This document shows, piece by piece, positions 1 through 59,910 of a stretch of 64,000 nt of DNA. Source of the DNA: Chiloscyllium plagiosum (lineage: Eukaryota); NCBI RefSeq assembly GCF_004010195.1, contig NC_057737.1, forward strand, positions 8,937,420 through 9,001,419. Reading direction: 5' to 3'. The notes below the pieces were generated by a model. The model ran no database searches and was not told the DNA's origin. It worked only from the letters and a program-made list of their open reading frames with translations. The translations under genes were made by a program, and so were the position numbers. The stretch's first letter is position 1; each line of letters opens with the position of its first letter.

Positions 1-540
1 GATGCTGCCTGACCTGCTGCGCTTTTCCAGCAACACATTTTTCAGCTCTGATCTCCAGCATCTGCAGTCCTCACTTTCTCCTAGAGAAGGAAACTGCCAG
101 CCTAGACAGGCTGAAGGCTGAAATGGGAGGTAGAGAAGCCAACATTTCAGGTGTAACCCCAGACCTCCTGATGCTACCTGGCTTGATGTGCTTGCTCTTC
201 CAGCCTCCTGCCTGTCTACTTTGGATTCCAGCATCTTCAGTTTTTTTTTTGTCTCTAATCCTTACCCAGTCTGGCCTACATATGACCAGAGACCCACAGC
301 AATGTGGTTGACTCTTAACTGCCCTCTGGGCAACTAGGGGTGGGCAATAAATGCTGGCCTTACCACATCCCATGAGTGAATAACAAAAAACTATTTTTGT
401 CGCTAATAAAAAGATGTTGGAGGGCCAAGAGCTAGTGATGGGAGGGCAGAGGGGGGGGTGTCTTAGTACCAACAGAAGAGACCGTGAGGAAGATTAGGGG
501 TTGAGGGGAAAGATTCGCACAACTCAGTGCCATCCCTTAC

Positions 541-3962: not shown

Positions 3963-4159
3963 GTGAGTTTGCTGTTTCTAATTGTACTCTTGTAAACCTG
4001 AAGGCAACGCTTCAACAACATCGTGTCGGCAGCTCTGTGTTGTGTAACCCTAGGTGCTGTGTCCCAGCAATGTTTCCAGTCCCCTCTCACCCTTGCCTGA
4101 CTTGGGGAGGCTTGAGTTGAAACGGTGGCGCTGGGCAAAAAAAAAAGCACAGCAGACTC

Positions 4160-4331
4160 CCAGGAGCAGGAGGATCGACGCTTCAAGCATAAGCCCTTCT
4201 GCAGGATTTAATTCCTGATGAGGGGTTTATGCCAGACTCTCCTGCTCCTCGGATGCTGCCTGACCTGCTGTGCTTTTCCAGCACCACACTCCAACTCTGA
4301 TCTCCAACATCTGCAGTCCTCACTTTCTCCT
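4160..4331. mobile_element. Palindromic Penelope-derived short element
   Basis: Partial left arm plus full right arm; same family also at 1-81, 1120-1193 and 46638-46697. Confidence 0.7.
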
Positions 4332-6738
4332 TAGTGGAAATGGTGCCTTTTCAGTTATAACTGCAAAACAAAAATGCAAGATAGGCCTTATTTTTGCAAA
4401 GAAGGTACACACCGTAAAGGTTTAACCTTTTTTTTAATGGTTGGGTAAATGATTTGTTATCATTCTGATTTGTTCAGAAAGTGCATGCATACAACCTCCA
4501 GATGTTCCATACAATGTTTCAATGCCAGGGGAGTCGCTCTGGTTAAAGTAAGTGGCATGACAAATTACTGACCTACTTTAACTGGATTGTAAGTACCACT
4601 GAAAAATATGACAAAGCCCCTGGTTTTTAAAAAACTTCATGCAGAAACACAAAGTCTGTTCTTCTGTCGACAGTGTAAAGTTAAATGCAAGTTCCTGCCA
4701 ACCCTAGAATAAATAGATGGTCATAAATCAAAATTACATCTCAAAACTCTGCATTTTAAAAAAATCTGTACACAAACCAAATGCGATTCTAAAGGGAATA
4801 TGCGAGCAGAAGGATTTAGAGGTATTTATGGACCAAGTGTTGAAGATGGTGGTGGGACAAGCATCCAGGATCCTGAGCTTTTTAAATGGAAGTTTGGAGT
4901 ATTACTCAATATTATAATAAAACGCTGGTTTGGCCTCAGAAGGTGGATGGTATGTATCCAGTTCTGATCACTGAACCTGAGAGCATTGGAAAGACAAATG
5001 GACCTGGTTTAGAGCTTGCCAGACTTCATCTCCAAGGATAGATTGGTATGGCTGCAGTTTGGGAGGGAAGGTCGAGATTTGATAAGAGTCAAGACACAGG
5101 AGATAGGGACAAATTGTTTCCATTAATGGAAGAGTTGAGAACCAGAGGAAACAGGTTTAAAATATTTAGCAAAGCAGTGGCATTGATATGAGGAATTTCC
5201 ACAGAGTGGTTAGGATCTGAAATGTACCGAAATTGCAAAAAGGTAATTGGAAAATTATCTGAAGAGAAAATTTGCTGCAGGGGAAGGGAGAGAAGGGTAG
5301 TGGAAATATTCTTGCAAAGAGCTAGCATAGATGAAGTGGGCTGAATGGCAGCCTCCTGTGTTATGATTCTGTAAGGACAAAACTTGCTTGATTGATTGCC
5401 CCATCTAACATTTAACACCAACACCCTCTCTCAGTAATACTCCACTGTATTAGGTACCATCTATAGTATGCAATGCAATGTTTCCATAGACAGCATTTCC
5501 AAATCCTAAACCTTTATCAGCAAGAAGGACAAAGGGCAGCAGATACATAGCACACCACCAACTGCAAGCTCCCCTACCAATCTCCACTTTCTGCTGAGTC
5601 TTCACAGTCCACCCATCTCCAGCTCCTTCATGTTCTCAGCTCTCTGATCATCCAATATTAAAATCCTCAGTCAGATTTTAGTCACCTCAGGACTTGACCA
5701 ATCCAATGTGCTGCTGGCTGGTTCCAATCTTCTACCATTTGGAGGCTTGAGATCATCCAAACCCTCTGCTAAGTGATGTCCTAATTCTCAAGTCCTGGTC
5801 TTCTATCACCTCTGATATACACTCCATCCTGGCCAAGCAATGCCTTCCATTTAAACATTCTGTAGCCTGTTGAGCATCTTTGATGTAATTGCTGCACACA
5901 CCTGAGGGCAGTGTTTTCAGTTGCCTCTCCCAAAACTCTGGGACACTTCCTTTAAGATGCTCCTAAAAACCGACATCTGCTTTTGGTCATCAGTCATGAA
6001 ACTACTTAATCAGATATCATGTCTGCTTTTGCTTTAGAATGTTTCCAGAATCAAAGAGGTCTACAGCATGGAAAAAGGCCTTTCGGCCCATCGAGTCAAA
6101 AACAAATTGTTCTCACAATTCCATATTTCACTTTTGTTCCATAGCCTTGTATGCCTTGGCATCACAAATGAGCATCTAAAGTATATTTGGGGGGATACTA
6201 AATTAACTTAAAATCACTATACATTGAGTGATTTAGTGCAGTGTTTTGGGTCCTGCAGCCGCCTCATTGCCCATAGATTAGTGAATCAAAACGTTCCTTG
6301 CTTCACATTGTTGCTAGGGATTGTTGACAGGATGAAACTGAACTTTGGTTTCCCGCCGAGGCATTTGGATGGGTATATGAATAGGAAGGGTTTGGAGGGA
6401 TATGGGTCGGGTGCTGGCAGGTGGGACTAGATTGGGTTGGGATATCTGGTCGGCATGGAAGGGTTGGACTGAAGGGTCTGTTTCCATCCTGTACATCTCT
6501 ATGACACAGCTTCATGGTTTGCCTGCGCCCCTCAGTCAGACAACGTGTGACAGAACAGATACCACAATGGCATCTCCGAGAAAGTGCAGTGCTTGTGCGA
6601 TCGCATTCACTCCCAATAAAGCTGCAGTAAAGTGATGGTGGGGTTTGGGAGGGCAGTGGGGCAGTTTAGCTAATGAAGGCAGTTTGGGAGGCCATTTGTA
6701 ATGGCTTTGACTTTCTCATGTTGGATGTTTTTTTGCAG

Positions 6739-16720: not shown

Positions 16721-17234
16721 GTGAGTGTTCTTTTAATGTAACTTTTTTAGATTTTTGTCTGTTTGGGGGAATAAATATTTGTTGGGTGAGTATATCAAAG
16801 GATGTGCAACAATGAGTTGAAATCTAGAGAAAGGGTAGAGTCATACAGCACGGAAGCAAACCCTTTGCTCCAACCAGTCCTTGTCCTACATAATCCCAAT
16901 CTAAACTAGTCCCACCTGCCCACTCCTGACCCATATCCCTCCAACCTTTCCTATTCATGTATGTGTCCAAAAGTCTTTTAAACATTGTAACTGGCCCCAC
17001 ATCCACCACTTCTTCAGGAAGTTCATTCCGCATGTGAACCACTGTGTTTAAAAAAAACCTTGTCTCCTATGTCTTTTTAAAATCTCTCTCCTCTCACGCC
17101 CCCCCAGTCTTGAAATCCCCTGTACTAGGGAAAAGACAACTACCGTACATCTCTATGACTCTATCCAATAACAATCAAACTTTGCATTTAGTGTTTTGAA
17201 ACCCCCTACCTTGCAAAGCTGGAAATAGTCACCC

Positions 17235-17408
17235 AGGAGAAAGTGAGGACTGCACATGCTGGAGATCAGAGTCCAGAGTGCGGTGCTGGAAAAGCACAGC
17301 AGGTCAGGCAGCATCCGAGGAGAATCAACGCTTCAGGTAAAAGCCTTTTGCCTGAAAGACAGGATGCTGTCTGACCTGCTGTGCTTTTCCAGAACCACAC
17401 ACTCGACA
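17235..17408. mobile_element. Palindromic Penelope-derived short element
   Basis: Same arms; TSD GAAATAGTCACCC at 17222-17234 and 17412-17424. Confidence 0.75.
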
Positions 17409-18166
17409 GTAGAAATAGTCACCCCATGGCCCAGAGGTAGGGACACTCCCACCATACCCCTCGTTATTTTATAAGGTCGCCTCTCAACCTCCTACACTGC
17501 AGTGAAAAAAGTCTCAGCTTATCCAGCCTTTCTTTATAATTCAAACGTTCTCATAAATCTCTTCTGAGTCCTCTCCAACTTCATATTATCCTTCCTATAA
17601 CTGGGCGATCAGAACTGGACACAGTATTCCAGAAGAGGCCTCACCAATGTTCTGTATAACCTCACCATGACTTCCGAGCTCCCCCTACTCAAAGGACTGA
17701 GCAATCAAGGCAGTAGTTTAATACAACAAAGTCTGAGGTTCAAACGGCTGAATGACTCTTTCCTGTTCATAATCTGAAAGGTTCAAAGGTTTTTTTTCTT
17801 ATAAGCTATGTAAAATTTAATTAGCAGAGTGTTGGCTAGCACAAAGGGGCATAGCTTTAAATTGAGGGGTGATAGATATAGGACAGATGTCATAGGTGGT
17901 TTCATTACTCAGTAGTAGGTGTATAGAATGCCCCACTTGCAATAGTAGTAGACTCGCCAACTTTAAGGGCACTTAAATGGTCATTGGATAAACATATGGA
18001 CGAGAACGGAATAGTGTGGGTTAGATGGGCTTTAGATTGGTTTCACAGGTCGGCGCAACATCGCGGGCCGAAGGGCCTGTACTGCGCTGTAATGTTCTAT
18101 GTTCTATTGACCACGTTAACTACTTCTTCCACCTCTTTTTTTTTTTCTCCCCCCACCCCCTTACAG

Positions 18167-24093: not shown

Positions 24094-24179
24094 TGTTTTT
24101 TTCCCCATTGCATTCAAATTCTCTCTGTGGTGGTTCAGGTCTTTTTTTTTAAAAAAGCTCAATCTTTGTTTTAATTAAG

Positions 24180-25237: not shown

Positions 25238-27053
25238 AATCTCCAGCATCTGCAGTACCCACTTTCACCTGCCTGCAACAGTCAGAGACTCGCCAACTTT
25301 AAGGGCATTTAAATGATTGTTGGATAAACATATGGATGAAAATGGAATACTGTAGGTTAGATGAGCTTCAGATTGGTTCCACAGATCCAAGGGTCTGAAC
25401 TGCGCTGTAATGTTATGTTCTATAAGATGCCTGCTTTACGGCCAATGAACTAATTTTGACAAATAATCAGAGTTCTGATGTAGAGAAAGCAGCAACCAAT
25501 TTATGTACAGCAAGCTTTCACCAGCAGCAATGAGATCATGCGTCTGATAATCCATATCCCAGGAAAAAATAATGGCCAAGTTAAGGACGCTACAGAAGAC
25601 AATTTGTTGTTGAAATGAGGAACAGGAAGAGAGATGCTCTAGAGGTGTTTGTGCACTGATTATTGAAAGTGACAGGACTGCTTAACAAAGGGTTGATAAA
25701 AGGGATATGACACTGGGATTTATAAACAGAGGCATGGAATACATAAACCACAAACCTGATGTATAACTCCAGTTTACTCCCCAACTGGAGGCTGTGTCCC
25801 CTGGTCTGCCTTCAGTATGGGTACGAGTACAAGGAGTGAGGACTTGGGATGATGTGGTTAGAGAGGAAAAGCTGGCATTGTTTTCCTTAGAGCAGAGTTG
25901 GCAAAGAGGATACTGGATGGAGATTTTAACTCATGAAAGAGAAAATAAGAAGGGACCATTTCGAGTGGCTGACTGAACAGGTTTAAGGTAATTAACAAAA
26001 GCATCAGAGTAAGTAAGAGTCATAGAGATGTACAGCACGGAAATAGACCCTTCGGTCCAACCCGTCCATGCCAACCAGATATCCCAACCTGATACAGTCC
26101 TACTTGACTGCACCCGGCCCATATCTCTCTAAATCCTTCCTATTCATACACCCATCCAGATGTCTTTTAAATGTTGCAATTGTACCAGCCTCCACCACTC
26201 CTCTGAGAGCTCATTCCATACACGTACCACCCTCTGAGTGAAAAGGTCTCTGTTATATCTTTCCCTTCTCACCCTAAACCTATGCCCTCTAGTTCTATCT
26301 ATTTATCCTATCCATGCCCCTCATAACTTTGTAAACCTCTTTAAGGTCACCCCTCAGCCTCTTAACGTTCCAGGGAAAACAGCCCAAGCCTGTTCAACCT
26401 CTCCCTATCGCTCAAATCCTCCAATCCTGGCAACATCCCAAGACGGAGGACGGGAAAAATTTGTGGCTGTAAGAGCTGCTCCTTTTTGAGGTATTTTAGG
26501 TGTTGGCGGTGATTTCCTCCAATTCCAGGAGCAGCAATTACTGTTTTATATGCTGTTGCATTGTTTTGGAACTTTGGAGAAAAATAAAGTCAAAACAACA
26601 GCACTTTTAAAAGGGAGGGGAACAGACAAAGGACGCACATGGTGAGGTCAGTGCAGTAGAGAGAGAGAAAGAAAGAAACCCACATTGCCAACTCTCAGAG
26701 TTAGCAGTTACTGTCTTTGCTGTTGAATTCATGTATCTCTGGACATTGGAATGCATCTGGGGAAATTTGTAAAAAAATGTGTAAACAGGTTTTTTTTAAG
26801 CACTGAGTAGTTATGATTGAAGACTGGGATAGACATATTTTTAACCAGTGATGGGTTTGAAGGTTAAGGGAGAAAGGCAGGAAAGTGGAGTTGCGGGTTA
26901 TCAGATTAGCCACGATCTAGACCCCTCAGCCAGGGGCTCACATCTTCTCAAAGCCATCCTGTCAAGTAACTGAAGAATTTTACACCTTTCACCAGGAAAT
27001 CTAGGGTAATGGGGAAAGTCAGGACAGTGAAGTTGAGAGTTACCAGATCAGGA

Positions 27054-27236
27054 GGAGAAAGTGAGGACTGCAGGTGCTGGAGATCAGAGTCGAAGAGTGT
27101 GGTGCTGGAAAAGCGCAGCCGGTCAGGCAGCATGTGAGGAGCCCTTCCTAATGAAGGGGTTATGCCTAAAATATTGATTCTCCTGCTCCTTGGATGCTGC
27201 CTGACCTGCTGCGCTTTTCCCGCACCACACTGTTCA
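27054..27236. mobile_element. Palindromic Penelope-derived short element
   Basis: Same inverted arms, degenerate central hammerhead (CTAATGAAGGGG..CCTAAAA). Confidence 0.7.
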
Positions 27237-28062
27237 ATGGTTCTCAGATCACCCTTAATAACATTGAATGACGGAGCAGACTGAATGGCCTTCTGCTCCT
27301 ACGTCTGATGGCCTGATGGTTTTGAATACATTGCCTAGTGGTTACAAGCTCAATTGTCATCTTCAAAAAGGGGGGAGTTTGATCAATTGAAGGGATAAAG
27401 GGAACAAGTCAGGTTGTGCGACTAAATAAAAACCAAAAGAAAGGAAATCAGGTGCTGTAAATCAGAAACAAAAACAGAAGTTGCTGGAAAAGCTCAGCAG
27501 GTCTAGTAGCATCTGTGGAGAGGAATCAGTTAGCATTTTGGGTATGGTGACTCTTACTGAGAACTGATGGTAGCTGGGAAAATGTGCAGAACTTAGGGAT
27601 GGGAGGGGGAAGGACTAAACAATAGGGGGTGGGAATAGAGCCCAGAGAGAGAGAGAAGACCAGTTGGACAGATAAACGAGTGGATAACAATCTGTCTGGG
27701 AGGATGAATAGCTATTAATGGGGGCTGTTAGTGATTAACAATGGGTTGTGTGTAATAACAGACCATGTGATAACAAGGTCTGGTGCATGGGGTTGGGGTA
27801 AGGACATAGGAGAGCTCAGGTCGTAAAGTTGCGTTTATGTAGCTCCTTTTGCTATAGGTGGGTTATTGGACACAAAGGGGTTCAAGCTGTGTTGGGATGC
27901 CCTACCATGACGATGATCTTTGCCCGGTTTCCTGCTATGGGGGGGGAGCTGGCATTTTGTTAATGATCGGGAGTGAGCTGGGCTTTGTATTAGTCGATGG
28001 TCAGGGATGACTGGGGTTATACGCAGATTCTGAACCCTGTGACCTCTGCTTTGAACCATCAG

Positions 28063-28149
28063 GATGGCCATGAAATTTGCTTTGTGGGTGAAGAGGCTTT
28101 CCATGACCTTTCCAAAGTGGATGCCAACGCCAACAAGCTGCTAGAGGAT
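28063..28149 (+). CDS. GLOD4: GLOD4 exon 8
   Basis: catcag acceptor; [29 protein letters not shown]; 87 nt; GTGAGT donor. Confidence 0.96.
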
Positions 28150-28542: not shown

Positions 28543-28858
28543 TAGATTAGATTCCCTACAGTGTGGAAACAGGCTGTTCAGCCCAACCAGTCCACACCGA
28601 CCCTCCGAAGAGTAACCCACCCAGACCCATTTCCCTCTGACTAATGCACCTAACACTATGGGTAATTTAGCATGGCCAATTCACCTAACCTGCACATCTT
28701 TGGACTGTGGAAGGAAACTGGAGCACCCGGAGGAAACCCACGCAGACACGGGGAGAATGTACAAACTCCACACAGACAGTTGCCAGAGGCTGGAATCGAA
28801 CCTGGGACCCTGGTGCTGTGAGGCAGCAGTGCTAACCACTGAGTCACCGTGCTGCCCC
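28543..28858 (-). mobile_element. HE1-like V-SINE, near full length
   Basis: Reverse complement with (AATCT)n tail. Confidence 0.9.
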
Positions 28859-29575: not shown

Positions 29576-29776
29576 AAACTCAAACTTTCCATTCCCAGCA
29601 ACATCCTTTGTAAAAGTATATGACTCGAATTTTTGTTTTAGAAAGTATTGGAGACCCGGGTTCAATTCCCGCCTCAGGCGACTGACTGTGTGGAGTTAAA
29701 CTCAAACTTTCCATTCCCAGCAACATCCTTTGTAAAAGTATATGACTCGAATTTTTGTTTTAGAAAGTATTGGAGA
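29576..29776. repeat. 79-bp direct repeat flanking a 43-bp SINE fragment
   Basis: 29576-29654 identical to 29698-29776. Confidence 0.9.
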
Positions 29777-30017
29777 AACTCAGCAGGTCGGACAGAATCT
29801 GTGGAGAGAGAAATAGTTTGATAAGATTAGATTACATTCCCTACGGTCTGGATACAGGCCCTTCGGCCAAACAAGTCCATACAGACCCTCCGAAGAGTAA
29901 CCCACCTGGACTCCCTGGGGTTGGGGAGTCCAGAACTAGAGGGCATAGGGTGAAAGAGGAAAAGGGACAACCTTTTTCTCAGAGGGCGGTGCGTGTATGG
30001 AATGAGTGACATTAATA

Positions 30018-30317
30018 CCGTAGCTCAGTGGTTAGCACTGCTGCCTCACAGCATCAGAGTCCCAGGTTCGATTCCAGCCTCAGATGACTGTCTGTGTGGA
30101 GTTTGCACGTTCTCCCCTTGTCTGTGTGGGTTTCCTCTGGGTGCTTCCACAGTACAAAGATGTGCAGTTTAAGTGAATTGGCCATGCTAAAATGCCCATA
30201 ACGTTAGGTGCATTAGTCAGAGGGAAAGGGTTCTGGATGCGTTTCTCTTTGGAGGGTCGGTGTGGACTGGTTGGGCCGAAGGGCCTGTTTCCGCACTGTA
30301 GGAAATCTAATCTAATC
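30018..30317 (+). mobile_element. HE1-like V-SINE just upstream of the last GLOD4 exon
   Basis: A/B boxes, V-domain, AATCTAATCT tail. Confidence 0.85.
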
Positions 30318-30416
30318 AATATGGGGGATGATGTCAGGGTGGTAATGTCTGACCCTTTAAAAGTCCATTTTCTGAATTGGCTGGAAGGAGTAACCGTGCT
30401 TGTCTTTCCCAAACAG

Positions 30417-30482
30417 GCTATAGCTGAAGACAAAAGTGTTGAATGGTTTGCAAAATACCATGTACCAAAGCCATCTGCGTAA
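30417..30482 (+). CDS. GLOD4: GLOD4 exon 9 (last coding exon)
   Basis: aaacag acceptor; AIAEDKSVEWFAKYHVPKPSA*. Nine exons sum to 897 nt = 298 aa + stop, with all phases compatible. Confidence 0.95.
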   Translation, partial: AIAEDKSVEWFAKYHVPKPSA

Positions 30483-33140: not shown

Positions 33141-33793
33141 GCGGTGGCACGGTGGCTCAGTGCTTAGCACTGCTGCCTCAGTATCAGGTACCAGGGTTCA
33201 ATTCCAACATAGGGTGACTGTCCATGTGGAGTTTGCACATTTTCCCAGCTTCTGGGTGGGTTTCCTCCCACAGTCCAAAAACGTGCAGGTTAGAGTGGAT
33301 TGGCCAGAGGAAATGCAGGGTTTCAGGGGTAAGGTGGGGGTTGGATCTGGGTCTGAATGGGATGCCCTTCAGAGGGTCGGTGTGAATTTGATGGACCAAA
33401 TGGTCTGCTTGCCATGCTGTGGGGATTCTCTGAAGCAGACTATTTGATTATTAAAGTTGCTGTGGGACTGCTTACACGACTGGTGGCGGTTTTGGGGTGG
33501 CACAGTGGTTAGCACTGCTGCCTCAGCGCCAGGGACCCGGGTTCAATTCCCACCCCCGGGCAACTGTCTGTGTGGAGTTTGCACGTTCTCCGTGTCTGTG
33601 TGGGTTTCCTCCCACAGTCCAAAGATGTGCAGGTCCGGTGAATTGGCCATGCTAAATTGCCCGTAGTGTTAGGTGCATTAGTCAGGGATAAAAATGTAGG
33701 GGAATGGGTCTGGGTGGACTGCTGTTCGGAGAGTTGGTGTGGACTTGTTGGGCCGAAGGGCCTGTTTCCACACTGTAGGTAATCTAATCTAAT
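33141..33793 (+). mobile_element. Two tandem HE1-like V-SINEs (33141-33430, 33494-33793)
   Basis: Two A/B-box heads and two V-domains. Confidence 0.85.
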
Positions 33794-34015
33794 CTTAACC
33801 TGAAGGTCACCACACCTCAAGTGAAGAGAGAGGTTGAGAAGGGGAATCCTTTATGGTAACATCAGCTGGTGTGGGAATTGAACGAACGCTATTGGTGTCA
33901 CTCTGAATTGCAAACCAGTTATCTATAATGTTTGTGGGGGGGATTAAATAAAAACAGGTTTTGGCCTCCAGCGATCGAACCAAACTAGCTGGGATCATTC
34001 TGAGCTGTACATCAT

Positions 34016-34219
34016 AGCAAAAGTGAAGATTGCAGATGCTGGAGATTAGAGTCAAGATTAGTGTGGTGCTGGAAAAGCACAGCAGGTCAGGCAGCATCCG
34101 CAGAGTAGGAAAATTAGCTGATTCCTGATGAAGGGCTTATGCCCAAAACATCGATTTTCCTGCTCCTCGGATGCTGCCTGACCTGCTGTGCTTTTCCAGC
34201 GCCACCCTAATTTTGACTT
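34016..34219. mobile_element. Palindromic Penelope-derived short element
   Basis: Same inverted arms, central CTGATGAAGGGCTTATGCCCAAAAC; TSD TGAGCTGTACAYCAT at 34001 and 34220. Confidence 0.8.
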
Positions 34220-34873
34220 TGAGCTGTACACCATGTCTGGCTAACCAACGCACTGTTAAAATTGCTCCACAGCTTAGTCCTGAGTAGTGCAGAAGCTCTA
34301 CAGCCATGGAAAATAACCTCTCCACATCATGGATAGAAACAGCCCCTTTTCACTTTGTGAAAAACCTTGTTTCCTGAACAGAAGAAGGAACCCAAGCAGA
34401 GAATAAAATCCTTAAATATAGCCCTTGTAATGAAAATGCAATTTGACTTATTCAGTCGCTGTAAACCAATGGCCCCCGAAAATAATATATACAGTTAAAC
34501 CCTAGTGAACACAAATCAGCTGGAAACATGTCTGGATCCAGCATTTCTGCAGACTGTTTATGTACATATATACAGTTTTAAAAATAGTTAAATGGACCAT
34601 TTCTGCCTTAGCTCATTTAATCCGACTGACTGTAACCAAATCTGAATGTTACACTTCATTAGCAATGAAGTATACTCACATGGAGCTTTTTTAATATGTG
34701 AAAGGTGGGGTGTGTCCTGACCACTGAAAGCTCATATCTGGGAAATGGTGTCTGATTCATGACTGTGACATAAAGGGGAGTGATTTAGTAGATTTGAATG
34801 CAATGCTAAGATGTGGTCTGCTTTTAGACAAAGCAGCAGTTTCAAGGCAGGATCTTGCTTTGTGAGAGTCCTT

Positions 34874-35057
34874 TAGAGACAAAAAAAAACCTGCAGATGC
34901 TGGATGAACACAGCAGGCCAGGCAGCATCAGGAGGTTGTGACGTCAACGTTTCAGGTGTTAACTGAAGAAGGGTTACACCTGAACCGTCAACCTCTCCCC
35001 CTCCTGATGCTGCCTGGCTTGCTGTGCTCTTTCAGCCTCTTGCCTGTCTATTTTGGA
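34874..35057. mobile_element. Second subfamily of palindromic Penelope-derived element
   Basis: Inverted arms around CTGAAGAAGGGTTACACCTGAACCGTC; related copy at about 100-256. Confidence 0.6.
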
Positions 35058-35812
35058 GAGTCCTTGAGCTTCCTCATGAGGTGAGGAGAGTACATTTTAA
35101 TTACCAGAGGATCTCAGTGTGGCTCTGCAAATAGTAGGTCAGGGTACTCTAAGAAATGAAAGCATTCAAAGAATAATGGAATGTAATTTTATTTAATGCT
35201 CATGTGGTTTATTTTCCCCAAGCTGGGTCACTTGCAGCAGAGTCTTGCAAAATGGTTACAGAGCACAGGGAGACCATTTGGCCCATTCTGTTCATGTCAG
35301 GGCTAAGGAGCCGGGAATGTGGGCACAATGTCAGAATGAGATTGCTACTTAGGACAGAGGGTTGGTTAGCCCAGTTGGCTAGACAGTGAGTGTCTGGCTC
35401 GGAATACTCCTAACCCAGCTTGAGTTCAATCCCAGATGCGCTGTGGTAAATCCTGAAGGCCATTCCTCCTCTCGTTCTTTCTCCCCCCCCACCCCCCCCA
35501 AGTTGTGTAACCAATAGTCTATCCCTAATGGAGAGGGAAGCCTCTGGTCCTGGTGTGACCACAGTTAATTCACTGAGAGCTCTCCATCCCAGAGGGTTTT
35601 GGATGCTCAGTGTCTCCACAAAAATAAATCCCCTATTGGGCCCTTGTGGTGTGGTAGTAGCATCTCTATCTCTGAGCCAGGAGGCCAAGTTTTCAGTGCC
35701 ACTTGCTCCAGAGGTGTGTGATAACATCTCTGTAATAGGTTGATTGGAAAATATTTAATTCCCCTATTGCCAATACCAGATGGCAATTAAACTCTGACTT
35801 AACCCAACCTTT

Positions 35813-36158
35813 GGGGTGGCATGGTGGCTCAGTGTTTAGCACTGCTGCCTCACTGCTAGGCACCCAGGTTCAATTCCAGCCTCGGGCAACTGTCTGTGTG
35901 GAGTTTGCACATTCACCCCGTGTCTGGGTGGGTGTCGTCTGGGTGCTCCGGTTTCCTCCCACAGTCCAAAGATGTATAGGTCAGGTGAATTGGCCATGCT
36001 AAATTGCCCATGGTGTTCAGGGATTTGTAGGTTGGGTGTATTAGTCAGGGGTAAGTATAGGGTAGGGCAATGGGTCTGGGTGGGTTACTCTTCGGAGGGT
36101 CAGTGTGGACTTGTTGGGCCGAAGGGCCTGTTTCCATACTGTAGGGAATCTAATCTAA
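35813..36158 (+). mobile_element. HE1-like V-SINE
   Basis: Full consensus. Confidence 0.9.
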
Positions 36159-37072
36159 TGTTCCTCATCAGATGGGAATTAGAGATATTTTCTCATCAAT
36201 CTGTTCAGAGGGGCTTTGTTATGTTACAATGGTAGATATAAAGATGAAGCAACCTGTCAGATAAGTACTACCATAGGGCTTCAATGTCTGGCTTCCAATG
36301 AATAGAATTCAGCAACTTAGACAGATTTTGATATTATATAATTTAAAACATTGATCGCAATTGGTTACAATGCATAACAGTACGTTTTGAATCTGTAAGG
36401 TATTCAGAGCATTTTATTAATATTAATACATCGAGAGATTGAGCCAGCTTACTTCCTATGGCTGGAGGGTCGAGAACTGCCTGTTAACACTTTGTTAAGT
36501 TTAACTCCATTAAGTCTCCTCCTTCAGATGTGCAATCTCTCCTATCTAAAAAGACAAAGGGCAGCCAACATAGAGGGACACCACCAACAGCAAGTTCAAA
36601 GCCACCCACGATCCTGACTATGTTGCCGATCATGTAAGAGTCAGAATCCAGGGACTCCCCTCCTAACTGTACCTCGAGTACATGGACTGCAGTGGTTCAA
36701 GAAGGCAGCACACCCCATCACCTCCCCAGAAGGCAGTTAGGAATGGAGAACAGATGTGATACCGTGTCACCTTTTATCTTTGTTTCAATCTGACTGCTGT
36801 TCCTCTGACCTTGGGTCCTTGATCACAGTTTCGCAGGAACAACTTCAGAATTCAGTGAATGACTTGACAAAAGTTACTAAATGTCTCTAGTACTATTCAC
36901 AGTGTGTTGATAGATGGTTATACCATTTACACAAAGTAACACTGTATGATATACTGGAAGCAGTTTTTGGAAGAATTACAGGAGCTGGAAATATAGGATT
37001 AATTATTATTTTGGTTTTAAGAGCATGAATCTGATTAATGATCTCTTTGCGATTATGATTGACAACTAATTA

Positions 37073-37790
37073 CCAGCGCACACCTCCTCCTGCAAGCACA
37101 GCAGAGCTCCCACAGTCTCCAACAGAGCCCTCATCCTGTAAATCCAGTAGAGCTCCCACAGTCTCCAGCAGAGCCCTCCTCCTGTAAAACCCAGCAGCGC
37201 TCATACAATGTCCAGCAGAACCCTCCTGTAAACTCAGCAGAGCGCTGTTTCCAGTAGAACTTCCTGTAAATCCATCAGAGTTCCTAAAGTCTCCAGCAGA
37301 GATCCCACTGTAAACCCAGCAAAGCTTATACAGTCTCCAGCAGAGCTCCCACAGTTTTGAGCAGAACCCTCTGTAAACCCAGCAGAGCTCCCACAGTTTT
37401 GAGCAGAACCTTCCGGTAAACCTGGCAGAGCTCCTGTAGCTGCCAGCAGAGTCCTTCTCCTTTAAATCCGGAAGAGCTCCGACAATCTCCAACAGAGTCC
37501 TCCTCGCAGACACCCAGCAGAGCTCCTACAGTCCCCATTAGTACCCTCTGTAAACCCAAAAGAGCTCCCAGTTTCCAGCAGAGCCCCCAGAAAAGCCAGC
37601 AAAGCTCCCACAGTTTCCAGCAGAGGTCTCCTCCACTAAACCCGGCACAGCCCCTTGAAAACCCAATATGCCTCCTACAGTCACTGGCAGCACACTCCTC
37701 CTGTTATCCCAACAGAGCTCCTACAGTCTTCAGCAGAACCCACCTCCAGTTAACCCAGCAGAGGTCCTGCAAACTCCTGCAGAATCCTTT
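37073..37790. repeat. Degenerate minisatellite, about 42-46 bp dimeric unit
   Basis: Recurring CCCAGCAGAGCTCCCACAGTCT + CCAGCAGAGCCCTCCTCCTGTAAA. Confidence 0.9.
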
Positions 37791-38482
37791 CCTCAAGTTC
37801 TCATTTGAATTTCCCAAATTTTAAGTGGGTTTAATGCACTGGAGTGAAAGATCTGATGTCCCGGAATAGCTTTATTTAATAGAGATGTAATTGTTTTATG
37901 TCACACTGGTTGACATCTAGTCATATGGCTGATTATTATATCAGTTTGTTGAGTAGATGTTGGACTCGAGAGATCAGTACTGTTGTGTTTTTATTAAAGC
38001 TATCATATTTTGATGGGAATGATTCAAATCTGTTTTTTTTAACCAAGTTGACATTTGATTTAATGATCTATTTAAATGGAAATAAATTTGTGTCTAATCG
38101 CAAACTTGTGAATTCTGTGCCAATAATTGCTGTCAATGTGCTGACAAACTGCTCACTGACACCTTTGGTACTGTTCAGCACAAATGAATTGATAGGTTAT
38201 TTATATAATTTAACACACGAGCAACTAGGGACGGGAAATAAATGCTCGTTCAGCCAACGATGCCCAGGTCCTCGGAGTAAAATTTTTAAAAATACAATAT
38301 GCAGCATGTAATGCAATTGGGGCTTATTTTAAGAGGCTAAGTGATGGGATACATCTGATTAATGTCCTCCTGTCAATTCTTAGAGATTACTGCCTCTTGC
38401 AACTTTTATTAACATAAACTTACTGTAGCTGTAGTTTGCCTGGGATACAAAAGACAAATATAGCAGAAGGTGGAAATATGAA

Positions 38483-38756
38483 ATTAGATTAGATTCTCTA
38501 CAGTGTAGAAACAGGCCCTTCGACCCAACAAGTCCACACCAACCCTCCGAAGAGCAATCCACCCGGACCCATTCCCATACATTAACCCCTTCACCTAACA
38601 CTATGGGCAATTTAGCATGGCCAATTCACCTAACCTGCACATTTTTGGACTGTGGGAGGAAACTGGAGCACCCGGAGGAAACACACACAGACACAGGGAG
38701 AATGTGCAAGCTCCACACAGATAGTTGCCTGAGGCGGGAATTGAACCTGGGTCTCT
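38483..38756 (-). mobile_element. HE1-like V-SINE, 5' truncated
   Basis: Reverse complement from B box to tail. Confidence 0.85.
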
Positions 38757-38931
38757 GGCCCATTGAAACAGAAAATACCAGATGGCAGCTTCTGAGGAAA
38801 CAGGAGGAAAAATGATGAAAGGGTTTGTTGACAGTGCTTTCAAGCAGCACGTGTTTTGTAATAACCTGCTCATTGACACCCATTTTGGCTTTCGCAAGGG
38901 CCACTCAGCTCCTGACTTCATTACAGCTTTG

Positions 38932-39134
38932 CGAAAGTGAGGACTGCAGATGCTGGAGATTAGAGTCAAGATGAGAGTGGTGCTGGAAAAGCACAGCTGG
39001 TCAGGCAGCATCCAAGGAGCAGGGAAATCTACGTTTTGGGCAAAAGCCCTTCATCAGGCACCTGCCCGAAATGTTGATTTTCCTGCTCCTCTGATGCTGC
39101 CTGACCTGCTGTGCTTTTCCAGCACCACTCTCAT
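38932..39134. mobile_element. Palindromic Penelope-derived short element with 16-bp TSD
   Basis: Inverted arms GTGGTGCTGGAAAAGCACAGC..GGCAGCATC / GATGCTGCC..GCTGTGCTTTTCCAGCACCAC; CTTCATTACAGCTTTG at 38916-38931 and 39135-39150. Confidence 0.8.
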
Positions 39135-40989
39135 CTTCATTACAGCTTTGGCTCATTCTTGGACAAAACAGCTGAATTCCAGAGGATTTGTGATTGGTGC
39201 TGAGCATCCCTGCTTCTGACCTTATGATGGAGGGAAAGTCATTGATGAAGTGGCTAAAGATGGTTTGGCTCAAACACTATCCTGAGGTACTAAGGGTTCT
39301 TGTGTTTCAATAGTAGTGTCTCTACCTCTAGACCAGGAGGCCTGGGTTTAAGTTCCACTTGCTTCAAATGATTCAAATGTGTATTTTTTTTGCCAAGTTA
39401 ACATTTGATTTAATGATCTATTTAAATGGAAATACATTGTGTCTAATTGTAACTTGTGAATTCTGTGCCAATAATTGCTGTCAATGTGCTGACAAACTGC
39501 TCACTGACACCTTTGGTGCTGTAAAGCACAAATGAATTGATAGGTTATTTATATCTAGGGATGGGCAATAAATGCAGAGATGTCTTGGAGCTGAAATGAC
39601 TGACTTCCACCAACTATAACCATATTATTTGTGCTGGGTATGACTCCAACCAGAACAGAGTGTCCCCCCCCCCCCCCCCCCCCCCGACTTCAGTTTGGCT
39701 AGGGTTCCATGTTGCCACACTCAGTCCAGTACCCTGATGTACTTATGTAATGAATGATTTGTCTGGTTACCACACAAAACAATATTTTTCACTGTATCTC
39801 AGTGCACATGACATTAATAATAAGTCAATTCAAAGGGCAGTCATTTTCACCTTGCCTCTGGAGCTCAGCTCATTGAGATAAGGAGCCATGGGCAAAAATT
39901 CTTTTAATTCCATGAAAGGAATTAAAAGAATTACATATTCAGATGGAAAAGCCATTTGGACAGGGATGATATTCCTGGCTGTTGGGCAGATCTTGCCCTT
40001 GAACCTAGCCCTGGCCCGTTCACAGATTAGACCATAAGACATAGAGCAGAAGTTAGGCCATTCAGCCCATCAAGTCTACTCCACCAATCAGTCATGACTG
40101 ATAAGTTTCTCATCCCCATTCTCCTGCTTTCTTCCTGTTACCCTTCATCCCATTGACAATCAAAACATATCTGTCTTAGTCTTAAACATACATAATGACC
40201 TGGCAGCGAATTCCATAGATTCACCACTCTCTGTCTTAAGAAGTTTCTTCTTATCTCTGTTCTAAAAGGACTTCCTTTTACTCTGAGGTCATAGTCTCTC
40301 CTACCAATGGAAACATTTTCCCACTCTGTCCAGGCCATTCAGTATTCTAACTCTGGCTATTGGACCCTCCACCTTCCACCAACACTTTTCTGGGCTCTGA
40401 TATTGGACTTGAAATATCAACTGTTTCTCTTTCCCAGGTGTTGCAAGGTCTGCTGAGTTTCTCCAGCACTTTCTGTATTTCTGTATTCATATTATGTATA
40501 ACACAGATACTTATATTACATACAGAGTCATAGAGATGTACAGCACAGAAACAGATCCTTTGGTCCAACTCACCCATGCCGACCAGATATCCTAAATTAA
40601 TCTAATCCCGTTTCCCAGCACTTGGTCCATATCCCTCTAAACCCTTCCTATTCATATACCCATAAAGATGCCTTTTAAATGTTGCAATTGTACCAGCCTC
40701 CACCACTTCCTCTGGCAGCTCATTCCACACACAACCACCCTCTGTGTGAAAAAGTTTTATATCTTTTATATCTTTCCCCTCTCACCTTGAACCTGTGCCC
40801 TCCAGTTCTGGACTCCCCCACCCCAGGGAAAAGACTTTGCCTATTTACACTATCCATGCCCCTCATGATTTTATAAACTACATTAAATATATACCACTAG
40901 TCTGTGTTTACACCTATAGTATGAGATGAGATGAGTATACATGAGATGTGAGTGTAGTACAGTGCCCTGTGGGGTCCCCTGGAGCAGGC

Positions 40990-41314: not shown

Positions 41315-42077
41315 NNNNNNNNNNNNNNNNNNNNNNNNNNNNNNNNNNNNNNNNNNNNNNNNNNNNNNNNNNNNNNNNNNNNNNNNNNNNNNNNNNNNNN
41401 NNNNNNNNNNNNNNNNNNNNNNNNNNNNNNNNNNNNNNNNNNNNNNNNNNNNNNNNNNNNNNNNNNNNNNNNNNNNNNNNNNNNNNNNNNNNNNNNNNNN
41501 NNNNNNNNNNNNNNNNNNNNNNNNNNNNNNNNNNNNNNNNNNNNNNNNNNNNNNNNNNNNNNNNNNNNNNNNNNNNNNNNNNNNNNNNNNNNNNNNNNNN
41601 NNNNNNNNNNNNNNNNNNNNNNNNNNNNNNNNNNNNNNNNNNNNNNNNNNNNNNNNNNNNNNNNNNNNNNNNNNNNNNNNNNNNNNNNNNNNNNNNNNNN
41701 NNNNNNNNNNNNNNNNNNNNNNNNNNNNNNNNNNNNNNNNNNNNNNNNNNNNNNNNNNNNNNNNNNNNNNNNNNNNNNNNNNNNNNNNNNNNNNNNNNNN
41801 NNNNNNNNNNNNNNNNNNNNNNNNNNNNNNNNNNNNNNNNNNNNNNNNNNNNNNNNNNNNNNNNNNNNNNNNNNNNNNNNNNNNNNNNNNNNNNNNNNNN
41901 NNNNNNNNNNNNNNNNNNNNNNNNNNNNNNNNNNNNNNNNNNNNNNNNNNNNNNNNNNNNNNNNNNNNNNNNNNNNNNNNNNNNNNNNNNNNNNNNNNNN
42001 NNNNNNNNNNNNNNNNNNNNNNNNNNNNNNNNNNNNNNNNNNNNNNNNNNNNNNNNNNNNNNNNNNNNNNNNNNNNN
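41315..42077. other. Assembly gap (763 N) in MRPS23 intron 1
   Basis: Run of N flanked by C-run-rich sequence. Confidence 1.
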
Positions 42078-42209
42078 CCTCTCCCCCCCACTCACCTCTC
42101 CCCCTCCTCTTTGTAGTTTCTGGCAAATCCAGCCTTTTCGTTCAGCTAGGTTTGTTGTAAATAAAGGTGAGGAAATCCACCAACCCGTTGCCTTTGTTTT
42201 AAACTGTAG

Positions 42210-42386
42210 GGTGCGGGACTTGTTGCGAGCTGGTGTCATGAAGGAGTCAGAGAAACCTTGCTGGTACGATGTTTGCGCTGCTTTCCCTCCAAAGTATGAG
42301 CCAGTCTACGCGCAACCGAAGGAGAGATTTGGTAAAGTGCAGGACCCGGTTCAGGAGATTTTCTACCAGGAGGACACGATTCGAGC
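42210..42386 (+). CDS. MRPS23: MRPS23 exon 2
   Basis: ctgtag acceptor; [59 protein letters not shown]; 177 nt; GTACGT donor. Confidence 0.95.
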
Positions 42387-43277
42387 GTACGTTCTGCTTG
42401 CATTTTGTTTAACAGCTGATGGTGTTGCAGGTGTTTAAAATGCCAGAAACACTGTGCCCGTCAGGATTCAGCATTGCAGAAAGAAGCTGTAAATGTTTTG
42501 GTCTGTGGTTTTTTTTGTCTGAACCAGAAAAGATTAGAGCTGTAATAAGTTTAATTGAACAATGAGGCAGGGAAAAGCTCAGGCAGGAGATACAGAACAG
42601 AAAGCACTATGTGATGGAGTAGAAGATAAAAGTGATCAAGTGATCAAAGGGATGGTAGTAGCAGGAGGTCTTTCAGGTGCTGACCATCCAACACCTACAT
42701 GGACTGACAGATTGTGAAACTGAATTCACTAATTTGGTATTTGGGGCTGATACCTAAAGTGACGACATAATCCATTGGTTTTCTGCAAAAATAAAAGGTG
42801 AAAGGAGATGGTATTAGGCCAAATAAAGGATCTAACGATGGGGCTGAGAGAAGCCATGCTTGGTGACAGCTGAGCCATTTCCAGCATCTCAGTTCTGCTT
42901 TCACCTTCTCTCATTTTACTTGGGGTTGCTGGTTGATCACTGTTCTCCGCTTCCCACTGTCAATTACTCATTTCTCATCCAATCCAGCTGCATTAATGTA
43001 ATTGCCGGCACATCCTTCCATCTATTTTTGGTCATCCTCCTCCCCTTCAGTCTCTCACTGTCTCACTCTCTCTGACACCATTCAATCTCCACCTTGGTAT
43101 TTCAGTGCTCCCGAAGTACAATGTAATGATGCTGGGTTAGAATACCACCCTACTGTACTGAGACCATAAGCAATAGGAACGGGAGTAGGCCATTCAGCCC
43201 CTTGAGCCTGCTCCCCAGTTCTTCCCCATAACCCTTCATTCCCCAATGGATCATTAGTCTATTTATCTCATTTATTT

Positions 43278-46441: not shown

Positions 46442-47255
46442 GTAAGGAAGATCCTTATTTGTATTCCTAGCTTTCTCCTTGGCCCAGACCCAGCAGTTAA
46501 TTATTGTCATTTATTAATTGGATGTGGGCATTTATTACCCATCCCTAATTGCCCTTGGTGACTTGCTGCAATCCATACCATATAGGGGGATGCACTATGC
46601 TGTAAGGATGACATAATGGAACAGTAATATATTTCCGAGTCAGGCAGCATCTGAGGAGCAGGAGAATCGACGTTTCGAGCATAAGTCCTTTGTCAGGAGT
46701 GAGGCTTGTGGGCCGGGGGGGGCTGAGAGATAAATGGGAGGGGCTACCTTCCCCCCCCAGCCCCACCCCCCCCATTTATCTCTCAGCCCACCCCTAGATT
46801 ACTCTAGTCAAGGCTGTTTCTGATCCCCTGAATCTTTAAAAATAAAACTAGTTACCAAATTAACTGAGTCCAGCTACATAAATAACTCAATAAGTTCAGT
46901 GCCCCAACCATTTGCCCATTGGGTAGTTTAAAATAAATTTGAGGATGTAGTGGGGTGGGGGTTGCTTTTCATTTGCAGGTATAATCGGATAGTGTTAACT
47001 GGAAGACCTATTTTGTACATCTGACTTCTAGTGCTGCTGATTGTAGACTGTGCAGGCATGGGATTATTACATTGCATTCTGTGTCAGGATTGTAATGATT
47101 GTGAGTAGTTATAGTTACACCTTTTTGTTCTGTTATTACACACTCCTGCAGAAGGTGGGACTTGACCCCAGGCCTAGCACTGTGCTGCAAGAGCCGGCTC
47201 CTAGCACACCTGTACTGAAGCCCTTACTGTTTTTCCGATATTTTCCCCCACTTAA

Positions 47256-49105: not shown

Positions 49106-49484
49106 AATAAGTGTGCCAAGGTATGTGTAGTTACGCTTCTTAAAGGAACATATACATGGTATTGCAACACAAGAATTAAGAGTGGGACTAATGGATTACT
49201 CTTCAAAAGAGCCATCACAGAGCTGATGGGCTGAATGGTTGTCTCCTGTGCTGCCCTGGTCTTTGTTACTGCACTTGTCTCCTGGACCAGCTCCCAAGTC
49301 AGCTGACCACGTTCATCCTCTCTTTGTCACATTTGTAAAGCCCTAGTTTATTAACATTTTCAGCTTTCTGGTAATTTATAAACTATCTTCACCCACAACT
49401 GAAATATCAAACTTGGTTTCCAAAAAGGTGTTCAGCCATTTCCAATCTAGGTAAATTCTGCCTGAACCCGGGATCAGCTGCACA

Positions 49485-49520
49485 AATCCTGATGAAGGGC
49501 TTATGCCTGAAACGTCGATT
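49485..49520 (+). ncRNA. Minimal hammerhead ribozyme motif, sense in MRPS23 intron 3
   Basis: AAUC-CUGAUGA-A-GGGC-UUAU-GCCU-GAAA-CG-UC-GAUU. Confidence 0.6.
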
Positions 49521-49612
49521 CTCCTGCTCCTCGGATGCTGCCTGACCGGCTGTGCTTTTCCAGCCCCACACTCTCGACTCTGATCTCCAGCATCTGCAGT
49601 CTTCACTTTCTC
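49486..49612 (+). mobile_element. Single-arm Penelope-derived short element starting at the hammerhead
   Basis: Runs from CCTGATGAAGGGC to CTTCACTTTCTC; TSD TCAGCTGYACAA at 49474-49485 and 49613-49624. Confidence 0.75.
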
Positions 49613-49714
49613 TCAGCTGTACAAGTGTCCCAGGGTATTTTTTCCCTTCTGTTTTTGTTGGATCCCTGCCTGAGGTCGGGAGCTCCACACCCTGTCTGAC
49701 CTTCTCTCTCCTAG

Positions 49715-58700: not shown

Positions 58701-58929
58701 GGTCTCTCTTATATCTTAATCCTCTCACCCTAAACCTATGCCCTCTAGTTCTGGACTCCCCCACCCCAGGGAAAAGACTTTGTGCTGAGATTCACTCATT
58801 CAGACAAGAGGGAGTATTCCATCACTCATATATTGTAGGTAGTGGGCAGACTTTGGAGAGATGCGAGTGAGTTCCTCATCACAGGGTCCCAGCTGCTGAT
58901 TTGGCCATGTACCCAAAGTATTTTATCTA

Positions 58930-59130
58930 GGAGAAAGTGAGGACTGCAGATGCTGGAGACTGGAGTCGTGAGTGTGGTGCTGGAAAAGCGCAGCAGGTCA
59001 GGCAGCATCCGAGGAGCAGGAAACTCAACATTTCAGGCACAAGCTGAAGGGCTGGAGCCCAAAACGTCAATTCTTCTGCTCCTCGGATGCTGCCTGACCT
59101 GATGTGCTTTTCCAGCACCACACTCTCGAC
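58930..59130. mobile_element. Palindromic Penelope-derived short element
   Basis: GGAGAAAGTGAGGACTGCAGATGCTGGAG left arm and inverted right arm. Confidence 0.75.
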
Positions 59131-59910
59131 AATATTTGATCTGTGTGGTCCAGTTGAGTTTCTGGTCAATGGTAACCCTAAGGATGTTGGTAATGGAGTA
59201 TTCAGCGATTCCAATGCATTGAATGTCCTTGTTGGAGATGATCATTGCCTGGCATGTTGGTCTGTCTACCTGCCCCTTATTCACCCAAACCTGGATATTG
59301 TTAAGGGTTTTTTCCCCTATATTTGGACGTGGACTTTTGTTGCCTCTGAGGAGTCACAAACTGCTCTGAACATCGAGCAATCATCGAACATCCCCACTTC
59401 TGACCTTAAGATGGAGTAAGAGTGATTGGTGAAGCAGCTGAAGATGTTTGGTTTTTGTGGTGCAGTGGTCCTGTCCCTTTCTCTGAGCCAGGAGGCTCAG
59501 GTTCAAGTCACACCTGCATGGAACTGCATAGTTAGGAAAATATATACAACTCACCCTGATTTGTTCTTGTGGTGCAGTGGTATTGTCACTATCTCTAAGC
59601 CAGGAGGTCTGGGTTTAAGTCTCGCCTGCTGCAGAGATGACTGACAGCTAGCAACCACAGCCATCTTCCTGTGTGCCAGGTATGACTCCAAGCAGTGGAG
59701 AGCTTCCCCCCGGTTCCCATTGACTGTGGTTTTGCCCGGGCTCACTGTTTTACCACACAAAGTCAAACGCTGCCTTGATGTCAAGGGCTATCACTCTCAC
59801 TTTGCCCCGCATTCAGCTCTTTTGTCCATGAGGTCAGGAGCTGAGTGGCCCTGTTTGAATCCAAACTGAGTGTCAGTGAGCAGACTAATGCTGAGTGGCA
59901 GTGATAGACT
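59131..59910 (-). mobile_element. Old CR1/L2-like LINE RT fragment
   Basis: Degenerate LESYLAHRKMAVV and ILRVTIDQKLNW; related pieces at about 1950-2700, 38780-39720 and 58080-58400. Confidence 0.55.

What the first reader, a model, noticed from the sequence alone, without database searches (positions are those of the whole stretch)
38916..39150. Palindromic ~200-bp non-autonomous element made of two inverted Penelope ends, with variable 12-16 bp TSDs
Seen: at least six two-armed copies (about 4160, 17235, 27054, 34016, 38932, 58930) plus single arms. The arms are inverted and meet at a variable junction that lies in or beside the hammerhead motif. TSDs differ in length and sequence: 16 bp here, 15 bp at 34001/34220, 13 bp at 17222/17412 and 12 bp at 49474/49613. 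Inference: it looks like a MITE, but variable TSDs, unequal arms and variable centres fit retrotransposition with inversion by a Penelope RT/GIY-YIG enzyme better than a DNA transposase. It may be a retrozyme-like mobile RNA, or a stereotyped product of abortive Penelope insertion. Each copy would form a long hairpin in pre-mRNA.
Basis: partly seen in the sequence, partly recalled or inferred. Interest (0 to 1): 0.7.

Follow-up and report, generated by a model that had tools for sequence, protein, structure and literature searches.

The report
Mirror-image Penelope insertion stubs
These 180-205-base DNA palindromes with 10-16-base target duplications are real, and are likely one-off, cut-short insertions of the ribozyme-bearing end of a Penelope-type jumping gene, with the mirror half likely made anew at each landing, rather than a new self-spreading element.

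Summary
Observation confirmed: the 38916-39150 copy has a perfect 16-bp target duplication (TSD) and two outward-facing arms. Seven TSD-flanked two-armed copies (TSD 10-16 bp) from at least two sequence families lie in the window. The arms carry a decayed minimal hammerhead of the Penelope-like element (PLE) type. In 8 of 8 scorable copies one arm is long and the other lacks its last ~35-45 nt, which is the known PLE 'tail'. Centres all differ, arms resemble their own partner (9% apart) more than other copies (16%), no position is side-specific, and contigs of two DNA runs show no dominant centre among the joints listed. So this is not a MITE, retrozyme or master palindrome, but likely the shortest form of the published PLE layout (inverted 5'-truncated pLTR, tail, TSD). 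I favour priming from both nicked target strands over fold-back, because the short arm reaches further upstream in 5 of 8 copies; later deletions could mimic this. No parent ORF could be linked here. The scan has already noted the same thing in many other shark windows. Ordinary, with a modest mechanistic hook.

The parts
38916..38931 (+). left target-site duplication, 16 bp
   Evidence: identical to 39135-39150
38932..39058 (-). long arm: PLE-type end, 3' end facing outward; 38932-38967 is the unpaired ~36-nt tail
39027..39058 (-). decayed minimal type I hammerhead (first core box intact, second broken)
   Evidence: motif compared with PMC4209133 fig. S3
39059..39062 (.). centre: 4 nt between arms, readable as filler or as a tiny snap-back followed by a deletion
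39063..39137 (+). short arm without tail; last 3 nt shared with the right TSD (microhomology)
39135..39150 (+). right target-site duplication
38842..39219 (+). host repeat interrupted by the insertion; a reading frame continues across the site when the TSD is counted once; paralogue without insert at 59811-59883 (-)
   Evidence: LINE-RT identity is recalled, Pfam gave no hit
4115..4345 (.). two-armed copy, degraded short arm left, long arm right, TSD 13 bp with 2 mismatches
17222..17424 (.). two-armed copy, TSD 13 bp perfect, 3-4 nt overlap of the arms inside hammerhead stem II
27039..27251 (.). two-armed copy in a GLOD4 intron, TSD 12 bp with 2 mismatches; paralogous empty site at 16100-16243 (-)
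34001..34234 (.). two-armed copy, TSD 15 bp with 1 mismatch; long arm stops at the predicted cleavage site
34864..35065 (.). two-armed copy of a second, related family (about 70-78% alike), TSD 10 bp exact
58917..59142 (.). two-armed copy, TSD 12 bp with 2 mismatches
101..258 (.). two-armed copy of the second family, internally deleted short arm, no TSD found
46635..46794 (.). palindromic copy whose centre lies about 60 nt upstream of the hammerhead; no TSD; neither normal end present
49474..49624 (+). single long arm starting at the 5' edge of the hammerhead, TSD 12 bp with 1 mismatch; both core boxes intact; used as reference arm

Best explanation
The palindromes are TSD-flanked pairs of outward-facing, hammerhead-bearing repeat ends with unique centres, and are likely dead, one-off insertion products of an endonuclease-bearing Penelope-like retrotransposon, likely made by priming reverse transcription from both nicked target strands. 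Steps. (1, inferred) The PLE protein nicks both target strands 10-16 nt apart, giving the variable TSD. (2, inferred) Each 3' end primes cDNA synthesis on the same element RNA, one at the outer start site (long arm with tail) and one about 35-45 nt further in (short arm), often using 1-3 nt of microhomology. (3, shown for the product, inferred for the cause) Both cDNAs stop early, mostly in or just around the hammerhead, on RNA that was not cleaved. (4, inferred) The two cDNA ends are joined head to head by end-joining, helped by the self-complementary stem II, and host repair fills in. The palindrome is a scar and is not itself copied. I put about 0.85 on 'PLE insertion scar made anew each time' and about 0.55 on double priming in particular.
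For: Shown here: variable TSDs of 10, 12, 12, 13, 13, 15, 16 bp on 7 of 9 two-armed copies. Long+short arm pairing in 8 of 8 scorable copies, p 0.004 against free choice of ends (46639 left out because it has neither end). All nine centres differ. For five well-preserved copies, within-copy arm distance is 0.093 (5 pairs) against 0.161 same side and 0.159 opposite side between copies (20 pairs each); the partner is nearest, ties included, for 7 of 10 arms (9 of 10 without CpG columns); 0 of 72 side-specific columns. In contigs of two DNA runs (115,484 and 104,101 laid) the 13 strand-switch joints among the 15 best-supported rows fall at many positions, at most 12 contigs and summed depth 244.6 each (112 rows not shown). 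Loose ends behind the long end read CTAG and then unrelated letters (1,911 records in X9, 301 in X15, 888 in X21). The short arm reaches further upstream than the long arm in 5 of 8 copies, the long arm in 2, equal in 1: neither arm is a subset of the other, as simple fold-back needs. Microhomology of 1-3 nt at long ends (58930, 34016, 4160) and about 2-3 nt at short ends (38932, 4160, 34898), read by eye. Literature: inverted shorter pLTR, 31-bp tail on one side and 9-10-bp TSD in Pen2a/Pen2 (PMC3846280, passages); same layout general for PLEs (PMC8557442, passages); purified Anolis PLE protein cuts and extends both target strands, starts at two RNA sites that bound the tail, is predicted to be a dimer, and uses uncleaved RNA (PMC11167929, parts 1-2 of 4).
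Against: No ORF is linked to these ends in my data: arms extend at most about 60 nt upstream of the hammerhead in the main family, and protein and DNA searches found no relative, so 'PLE' rests on motif and architecture. The subset test has only 8 old copies; 103, 17235, 34898 and probably 27054 and 38932 carry internal deletions, so centre deletions after insertion could produce the 5:2:1 pattern from a fold-back origin. The centres of 4160, 34016 and 38932 hold tiny palindromes that fit snap-back. Arm similarity within a copy could also come from gene conversion. Two of nine two-armed copies have no TSD and three TSDs are weak alone. Contigs fragment in repeats and only the top joints were shown. 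The Anolis element is a Poseidon type that favours AT-rich targets; these TSDs are not strongly AT-rich, and the clade of this family is unknown. PMC3846280 (Discussion) argues instead for self-priming on an antisense template.
Confidence: 0.55

Rival explanations
1. Same PLE scar, but made by one priming at the tail end, then the cDNA folds back in the hammerhead stem, copies itself, stops before the tail and jumps to the other target end; later deletions reshaped the centres.
For: Explains long+short in 8 of 8 and shared variants within copies; tiny palindromes at the centres of 4160, 34016, 38932; internal deletions are common in these arms.
Against: Predicts that the tailed arm always reaches further upstream; seen in only 2 of 8, equal in 1, opposite in 5.
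Confidence: 0.2
2. PLE scar made by self-priming on an antisense transcript, as proposed for rotifer Penelopes.
For: Published proposal for head-to-head junctions with palindromes (PMC3846280 Discussion). The short arm reaching further upstream in 5 of 8 would fit if the tailed arm were the self-primed copy (my inference). RNA reads lie on both strands.
Against: Gives one direction only, while both occur. In vitro the Anolis protein primes from nicked target DNA on the sense RNA at the tail boundaries.
Confidence: 0.1
3. A non-autonomous palindromic retroelement (one or several masters, retrozyme-like) that is transcribed and reinserted as a unit by PLE protein in trans.
For: Inserts are similar in size (177-205 bp in 7 copies); tandem non-autonomous PLE derivatives exist (bioRxiv 10.64898/2026.07.22.740005, part 1 of 5 and passages); 2 of the 15 top joints are head-to-tail.
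Against: All centres differ; 0 of 72 side-specific columns; arms pair by copy; no high-depth joint among those shown; two families show the same form; the hairpin (-142.8 kcal/mol) would bury the hammerhead; most arms pass the cleavage site.
Confidence: 0.08
4. A MITE moved by a DNA transposase.
For: Short, non-coding, palindromic, very abundant.
Against: TSD lengths 10-16 bp, unequal and variable termini, single arms with TSDs, hammerhead motif. Fixed TSD length and matching terminal repeats in DNA transposons is recalled knowledge.
Confidence: 0.01

Closest known systems
EN+ Penelope-like element insertions with inverted 5'-truncated pLTR, one-sided 30-40-bp tail and TSD (Pen2a_Av, Pen2 derivative, PMC3846280; general scheme in PMC8557442)
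   Same: Head-to-head inverted ends, one arm shorter by the tail, TSD, microhomology and small palindromes at junctions.
   Different: No ORF or second direct pLTR inside; total size about 200 bp; TSD 10-16 bp against 8-10 bp in the rotifer examples; very abundant.
Dual minimal hammerheads 100-700 bp apart on opposite strands in Schistosoma mansoni; min-HHRs of metazoan PLEs (PMC4209133, Results, Discussion, supplement parts 1-2 of 3)
   Same: Same minimal motif (CUGANGAH, stem II opening with G, GAAA, two-base palindromic helix III, UH) and opposite-strand pairs tied to truncated PLEs.
   Different: Here the two motifs abut or overlap at the centre; no cartilaginous fish is among the rows of fig. 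S3 or table S1 that I saw.
PAc Poseidon element of Anolis (PMC11167929)
   Same: Two preferred 3' ends bounding a tail roughly 85-120 nt downstream of the hammerhead stem; uncleaved template.
   Different: In PAc the ORF starts within the hammerhead and targets are AT-rich; neither is shown here.
Non-LTR retrozymes (PMC7229834, passages; bioRxiv 10.64898/2026.07.22.740005)
   Same: Non-coding, type I hammerhead, PLE-related, larger TSDs when present.
   Different: Retrozymes are head-to-tail tandem repeats, described with canonical ribozymes and circular RNAs; these are head-to-head, minimal and decayed.
L1 twin priming (recalled; no paper read)
   Same: Inversion made by priming from both target strands.
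   Different: In L1 the two segments do not overlap on the RNA; here both arms copy the same stretch.

Membership tests
EN+ Penelope-like element insertion | Minimal type I hammerhead in the terminal repeat | tested here: met
   Full descriptor match in single arms 49488 and 14619; decayed in two-armed copies; fits consensus of PMC4209133 fig. S3
EN+ Penelope-like element insertion | Inverted 5'-truncated copy adjoining head to head | tested here: met
EN+ Penelope-like element insertion | 30-40-bp tail at one end only | tested here: met
   long ends at reference 127-133, short ends at about 86-100; 8 of 8 long+short
EN+ Penelope-like element insertion | Variable-length TSD | tested here: met
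   10-16 bp on 7 of 9 two-armed copies; one paralogous empty site with the motif once
EN+ Penelope-like element insertion | Parent element with RT and GIY-YIG ORF bounded by the same repeat | tested here: inconclusive
   No genome held; no hits, none of which holds annotated shark repeats for certain
EN+ Penelope-like element insertion | RT phylogeny places it in Neptune or Poseidon | not testable with these tools
   no RT sequence linked
Non-LTR retrozyme | Head-to-tail tandem repeats, each with a hammerhead | tested here: not met
   no tandem array of these arms among 13 TRF rows; copies are head to head; some head-to-tail joints exist elsewhere
Non-LTR retrozyme | Self-cleavage defines the unit; circular RNA made | tested here: inconclusive
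   13 of the 16 arms in the 8 scored copies extend upstream past the predicted cut site; no pile-up of read ends (table 6), weak in a fragmented poly(A) library
MITE / non-autonomous DNA transposon | Fixed-length TSD | tested here: not met
MITE / non-autonomous DNA transposon | Matching terminal inverted repeats at both ends, uniform between copies | tested here: not met
   one terminus carries an unpaired 35-45-nt tail; short ends vary
Master non-autonomous palindromic retroelement | Shared centre and side-specific variants among copies | tested here: not met

The most novel reading that the evidence does not exclude
PLE integration is a two-headed reaction: a dimer nicks both strands and primes twice on ONE RNA molecule, at the two sites that bound the tail, copying the same stretch twice by strand displacement. 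This would explain at once the obligate long+short pairing, the shared variants within copies and the free order of the centres. The shark stubs would be a genome-scale record of it, a form of twin priming with overlapping arms that I did not find described.
Probability: 0.35. Interest if true: 0.55.

Novelty: new member of a known kind. Interest (0 to 1): 0.26.

Why it matters
As an object it is ordinary: the minimal form of a published PLE insertion layout, and a warning that such stubs can be mis-annotated as MITEs. Its value is as data. How PLEs make inverted structures and tails is stated as open (PMC8557442, passage), and these stubs hold both target junctions and the centre within 200 bp at very high copy number, so three integration models can be told apart by counting. 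Intronic copies would also be a large source of double-stranded pre-mRNA, which is untested.

Tried and rejected
Whole genome: none held. Rfam at gathering thresholds: 0 matches. Pattern scan of viral contigs: 0. Metagenome scan: 61 loci, none among the top 20 alignments beyond 28 nt, so chance hits. Arm translation as a possible ORF start: 2 candidates, none significant; 1 hit among 1.84 billion proteins, an unrelated cysteine-repeat protein. Fragment upstream of the 23935 hammerhead: no Pfam GIY-YIG hit and no homologue. Pfam on 21 frames found GLOD4 and MRPS23 and two sub-threshold hits, no PLE domain; host-repeat flanks 0 of 2. Locus-level test for empty sites in relatives and for A-to-I editing: not obtained, so both stay open; no RNA holder was listed for 33600-40200. 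Family-wide editing hint: A>G plus T>C places 30 of 99 in RNA reads against 11 of 58 and 12 of 62 in DNA contigs, p 0.14; other changes are also strand-skewed, so inconclusive. Idea that the long end is a 3' splice site and the tail a lariat tail: three families end in pyrimidines plus TAG/TAA, but two AGs lie between the branch-like motif and the end; set aside as unsupported. Paralogue of the focal site lacks the insert but has a 20-bp deletion over the TSD, so it is only a partial empty site. PMC5753468 (passages) says nothing on palindromic Penelope elements. Searches for shark PLE papers gave nothing relevant in listings; bioRxiv supplements and one .gbk supplement of PMC11167929 could not be read and might hold related sequences.

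Full report
Setting. The window is vertebrate DNA holding GLOD4 (Pfam hits in frames at 17927 and 27994) and MRPS23 (42118). That it is a cartilaginous fish is my recall of the repeat, in line with earlier scan notes; it was not tested. No whole genome was held.

Observation. The focal copy has a perfect 16-bp TSD (38916-38931 / 39135-39150) around a 203-bp insert. Its arms are 91% complementary over 75 nt and it folds at -142.8 kcal/mol, z -16. BLAST and inverted-repeat scans gave nine two-armed copies and about a dozen single arms of several related families. Seven two-armed copies have TSDs: 16, 15, 13, 13, 12, 12 and 10 bp. Four of these, and the single arm at 49488, stand clear of a 300-pair null; three are weak alone; two copies (103, 46639) have none.

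Insertion evidence. The 27054 copy sits in a host repeat whose paralogue at 16100-16243 is continuous and shows the TSD-like motif once. The focal copy interrupts another host repeat: a reading frame runs on across the site when the TSD is counted once, and a paralogue at 59811-59883 has no insert, though a 20-bp deletion there covers the site.

Anatomy. Using the single arm 49484-49613 as a ruler, the element strand reads: hammerhead core CUGAUGA at 6-12, stem II, GAAACGUC with the predicted cut after 33, then about 100 nt. This matches the minimal type I hammerhead of PLEs (PMC4209133 Results and fig. S3). Rfam does not score it. Both core boxes survive in 3 of 11 arms checked, all single arms, and in none of the 8 from two-armed copies. 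In two-armed copies the 3' ends face outward. One arm ends at 127-133, the other at about 86-100. This long+short pairing holds in 8 of 8 scorable copies (p 0.004; 46639 left out as it has neither end), in two families. Laid contigs and reads confirm a sharp long end: loose ends read CTAG and then unrelated letters in three of four runs' listed rows. The difference equals the 30-40-bp PLE tail present at one end only (PMC8557442; Pen2a_Av with inverted pLTR, 31-bp tail, 9-bp TSD, PMC3846280).

Unit or scar? All nine centres differ. In five well-preserved copies the arms are 9.3% apart within a copy and 16% apart between copies, whichever side; no column of 72 separates long from short arms. 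In two DNA runs over 100,000 contigs each were laid on the arm; of the 15 best-supported joints 13 switch strand, at many positions, none above 12 contigs or depth 245 in DNA (112 rows unseen). A master palindrome would give a recurring centre and side-specific variants. Neither is seen, so the mirror half is likely built at each insertion. Gene conversion could add to within-copy similarity but would not make unique centres.

Role of the hammerhead. Upstream ends of arms lie mostly at positions 2-21, inside or at the 5' edge of the motif: 13 of 16 arms pass the predicted cut site, one (34016 long arm) ends at it, two end about 10 nt downstream (one of these, 27054, can also be read as reaching position 10 with a deletion). 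So cleavage does not define the junction, in line with the uncleaved RNA being the main substrate of the Anolis PLE. Why arms stop there is not shown: polymerase stalling, a nearby RNA 5' end, annealing through stem II (3-4 nt overlap in 17235) or a detection bias for short copies are all open.

Mechanism. Both arms have the polarity of a cDNA primed from a target 3' end. Fold-back of a tail-primed cDNA needs the short arm to be a subset of the long arm. Instead the short arm reaches further upstream in 34016, 58930, 27054, 34898 and 103, the long arm in 38932 and 17235, and they tie in 4160. Short microhomologies occur at both kinds of target junction (by eye). The purified Anolis protein cuts and extends both strands, starts at two sites bounding the tail and is predicted to be a dimer. 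I therefore favour double priming followed by end-joining (0.55), probably on one RNA given the strict long+short pairing and shared variants. Fold-back with later centre deletions (0.2) remains live because these copies are old, several have internal deletions, and three centres hold tiny palindromes. Antisense self-priming (PMC3846280 Discussion) gets 0.1, a master element 0.08, a MITE 0.01.

What is missing. No ORF was linked to these ends. Two earlier scan notes on this genome report a GIY-YIG frame next to such ends (e1-9369093, e1-9160731); I could not check them. Editing and small RNAs are untested at the locus; a family-wide excess of A>G/T>C places in RNA reads was not significant. 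Only the 27054 copy is shown to lie within a gene.

Papers seen: PMC11167929 parts 1-2 of 4 and supplement 1; PMC4209133 outline, Results, Discussion, supplement parts 1-2 of 3; PMC3846280 passages and Discussion; PMC8557442, PMC7229834, PMC5753468 passages; bioRxiv 10.64898/2026.07.22.740005 part 1 of 5 and passages. Eight full-text searches listed no paper on these shark stubs or on overlapping twin priming in PLEs; the library lacks most subscription papers and repeat databases.

Verdict. Real, correctly described, and a new member of a known kind: the shortest PLE-type inverted insertion. The scan has noted it before in at least a dozen other windows of this and other genomes, with the same overall reading; my reading was on record before those look-ups. 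Interest 0.26, for the countable test of PLE integration that it offers.

Noticed in passing
window 979-1333: A single arm of another related family (about 1117-1195) is flanked by a 138-bp direct duplication, 137 of 138 identical (979-1116 / 1196-1333): a very long TSD of a young insertion, a later tandem duplication, or an assembly artefact.
   Followed up: partly
window 23800-24180 (-): A different minimal hammerhead (both core boxes intact, longer stem II, at 23935) lies downstream of decayed frames that look like a GIY-YIG C-terminus from recall; no Pfam or homologue hit. Likely a second PLE lineage.
   Followed up: partly
window 2869-2972, 19117-19200, 19943-20043, 27424-27830, 29761-29818, 40402-40480, 55045-55091: A third family of related single arms with no mirror half found; the 27424 copy seems to extend a few hundred bases upstream of its decayed hammerhead.
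   Followed up: partly
long ends at 72-85, 58926-58940, 34874-34890, 27424-27450: Long ends of three families finish in a pyrimidine tract plus TAG/TAA, like a 3' splice site; intervening AGs argue against a simple branch-point reading.
   Followed up: partly
window 34001-34015 and 49474-49485: Two independent TSDs share 10 of 11 bases, and the focal TSD also holds AGCT; possible weak target preference or chance.
   Followed up: no
window 37083-37784: Degenerate 42-46-bp tandem array with 21-bp subunits.
   Followed up: no
joints 49612 to 49487 and 49612 to 49526: Head-to-tail joints of the same arm occur in other genomic copies (up to 18 contigs in X9), i.e. partial tandems exist beside the inverted form.
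   Followed up: no
window 17927-30482 and 42118-42390: GLOD4 and MRPS23 exons on the + strand; assembly gaps at 24738-25237, 41315-42077 and 53801-53852, the first cutting an arm at 25238.
   Followed up: partly
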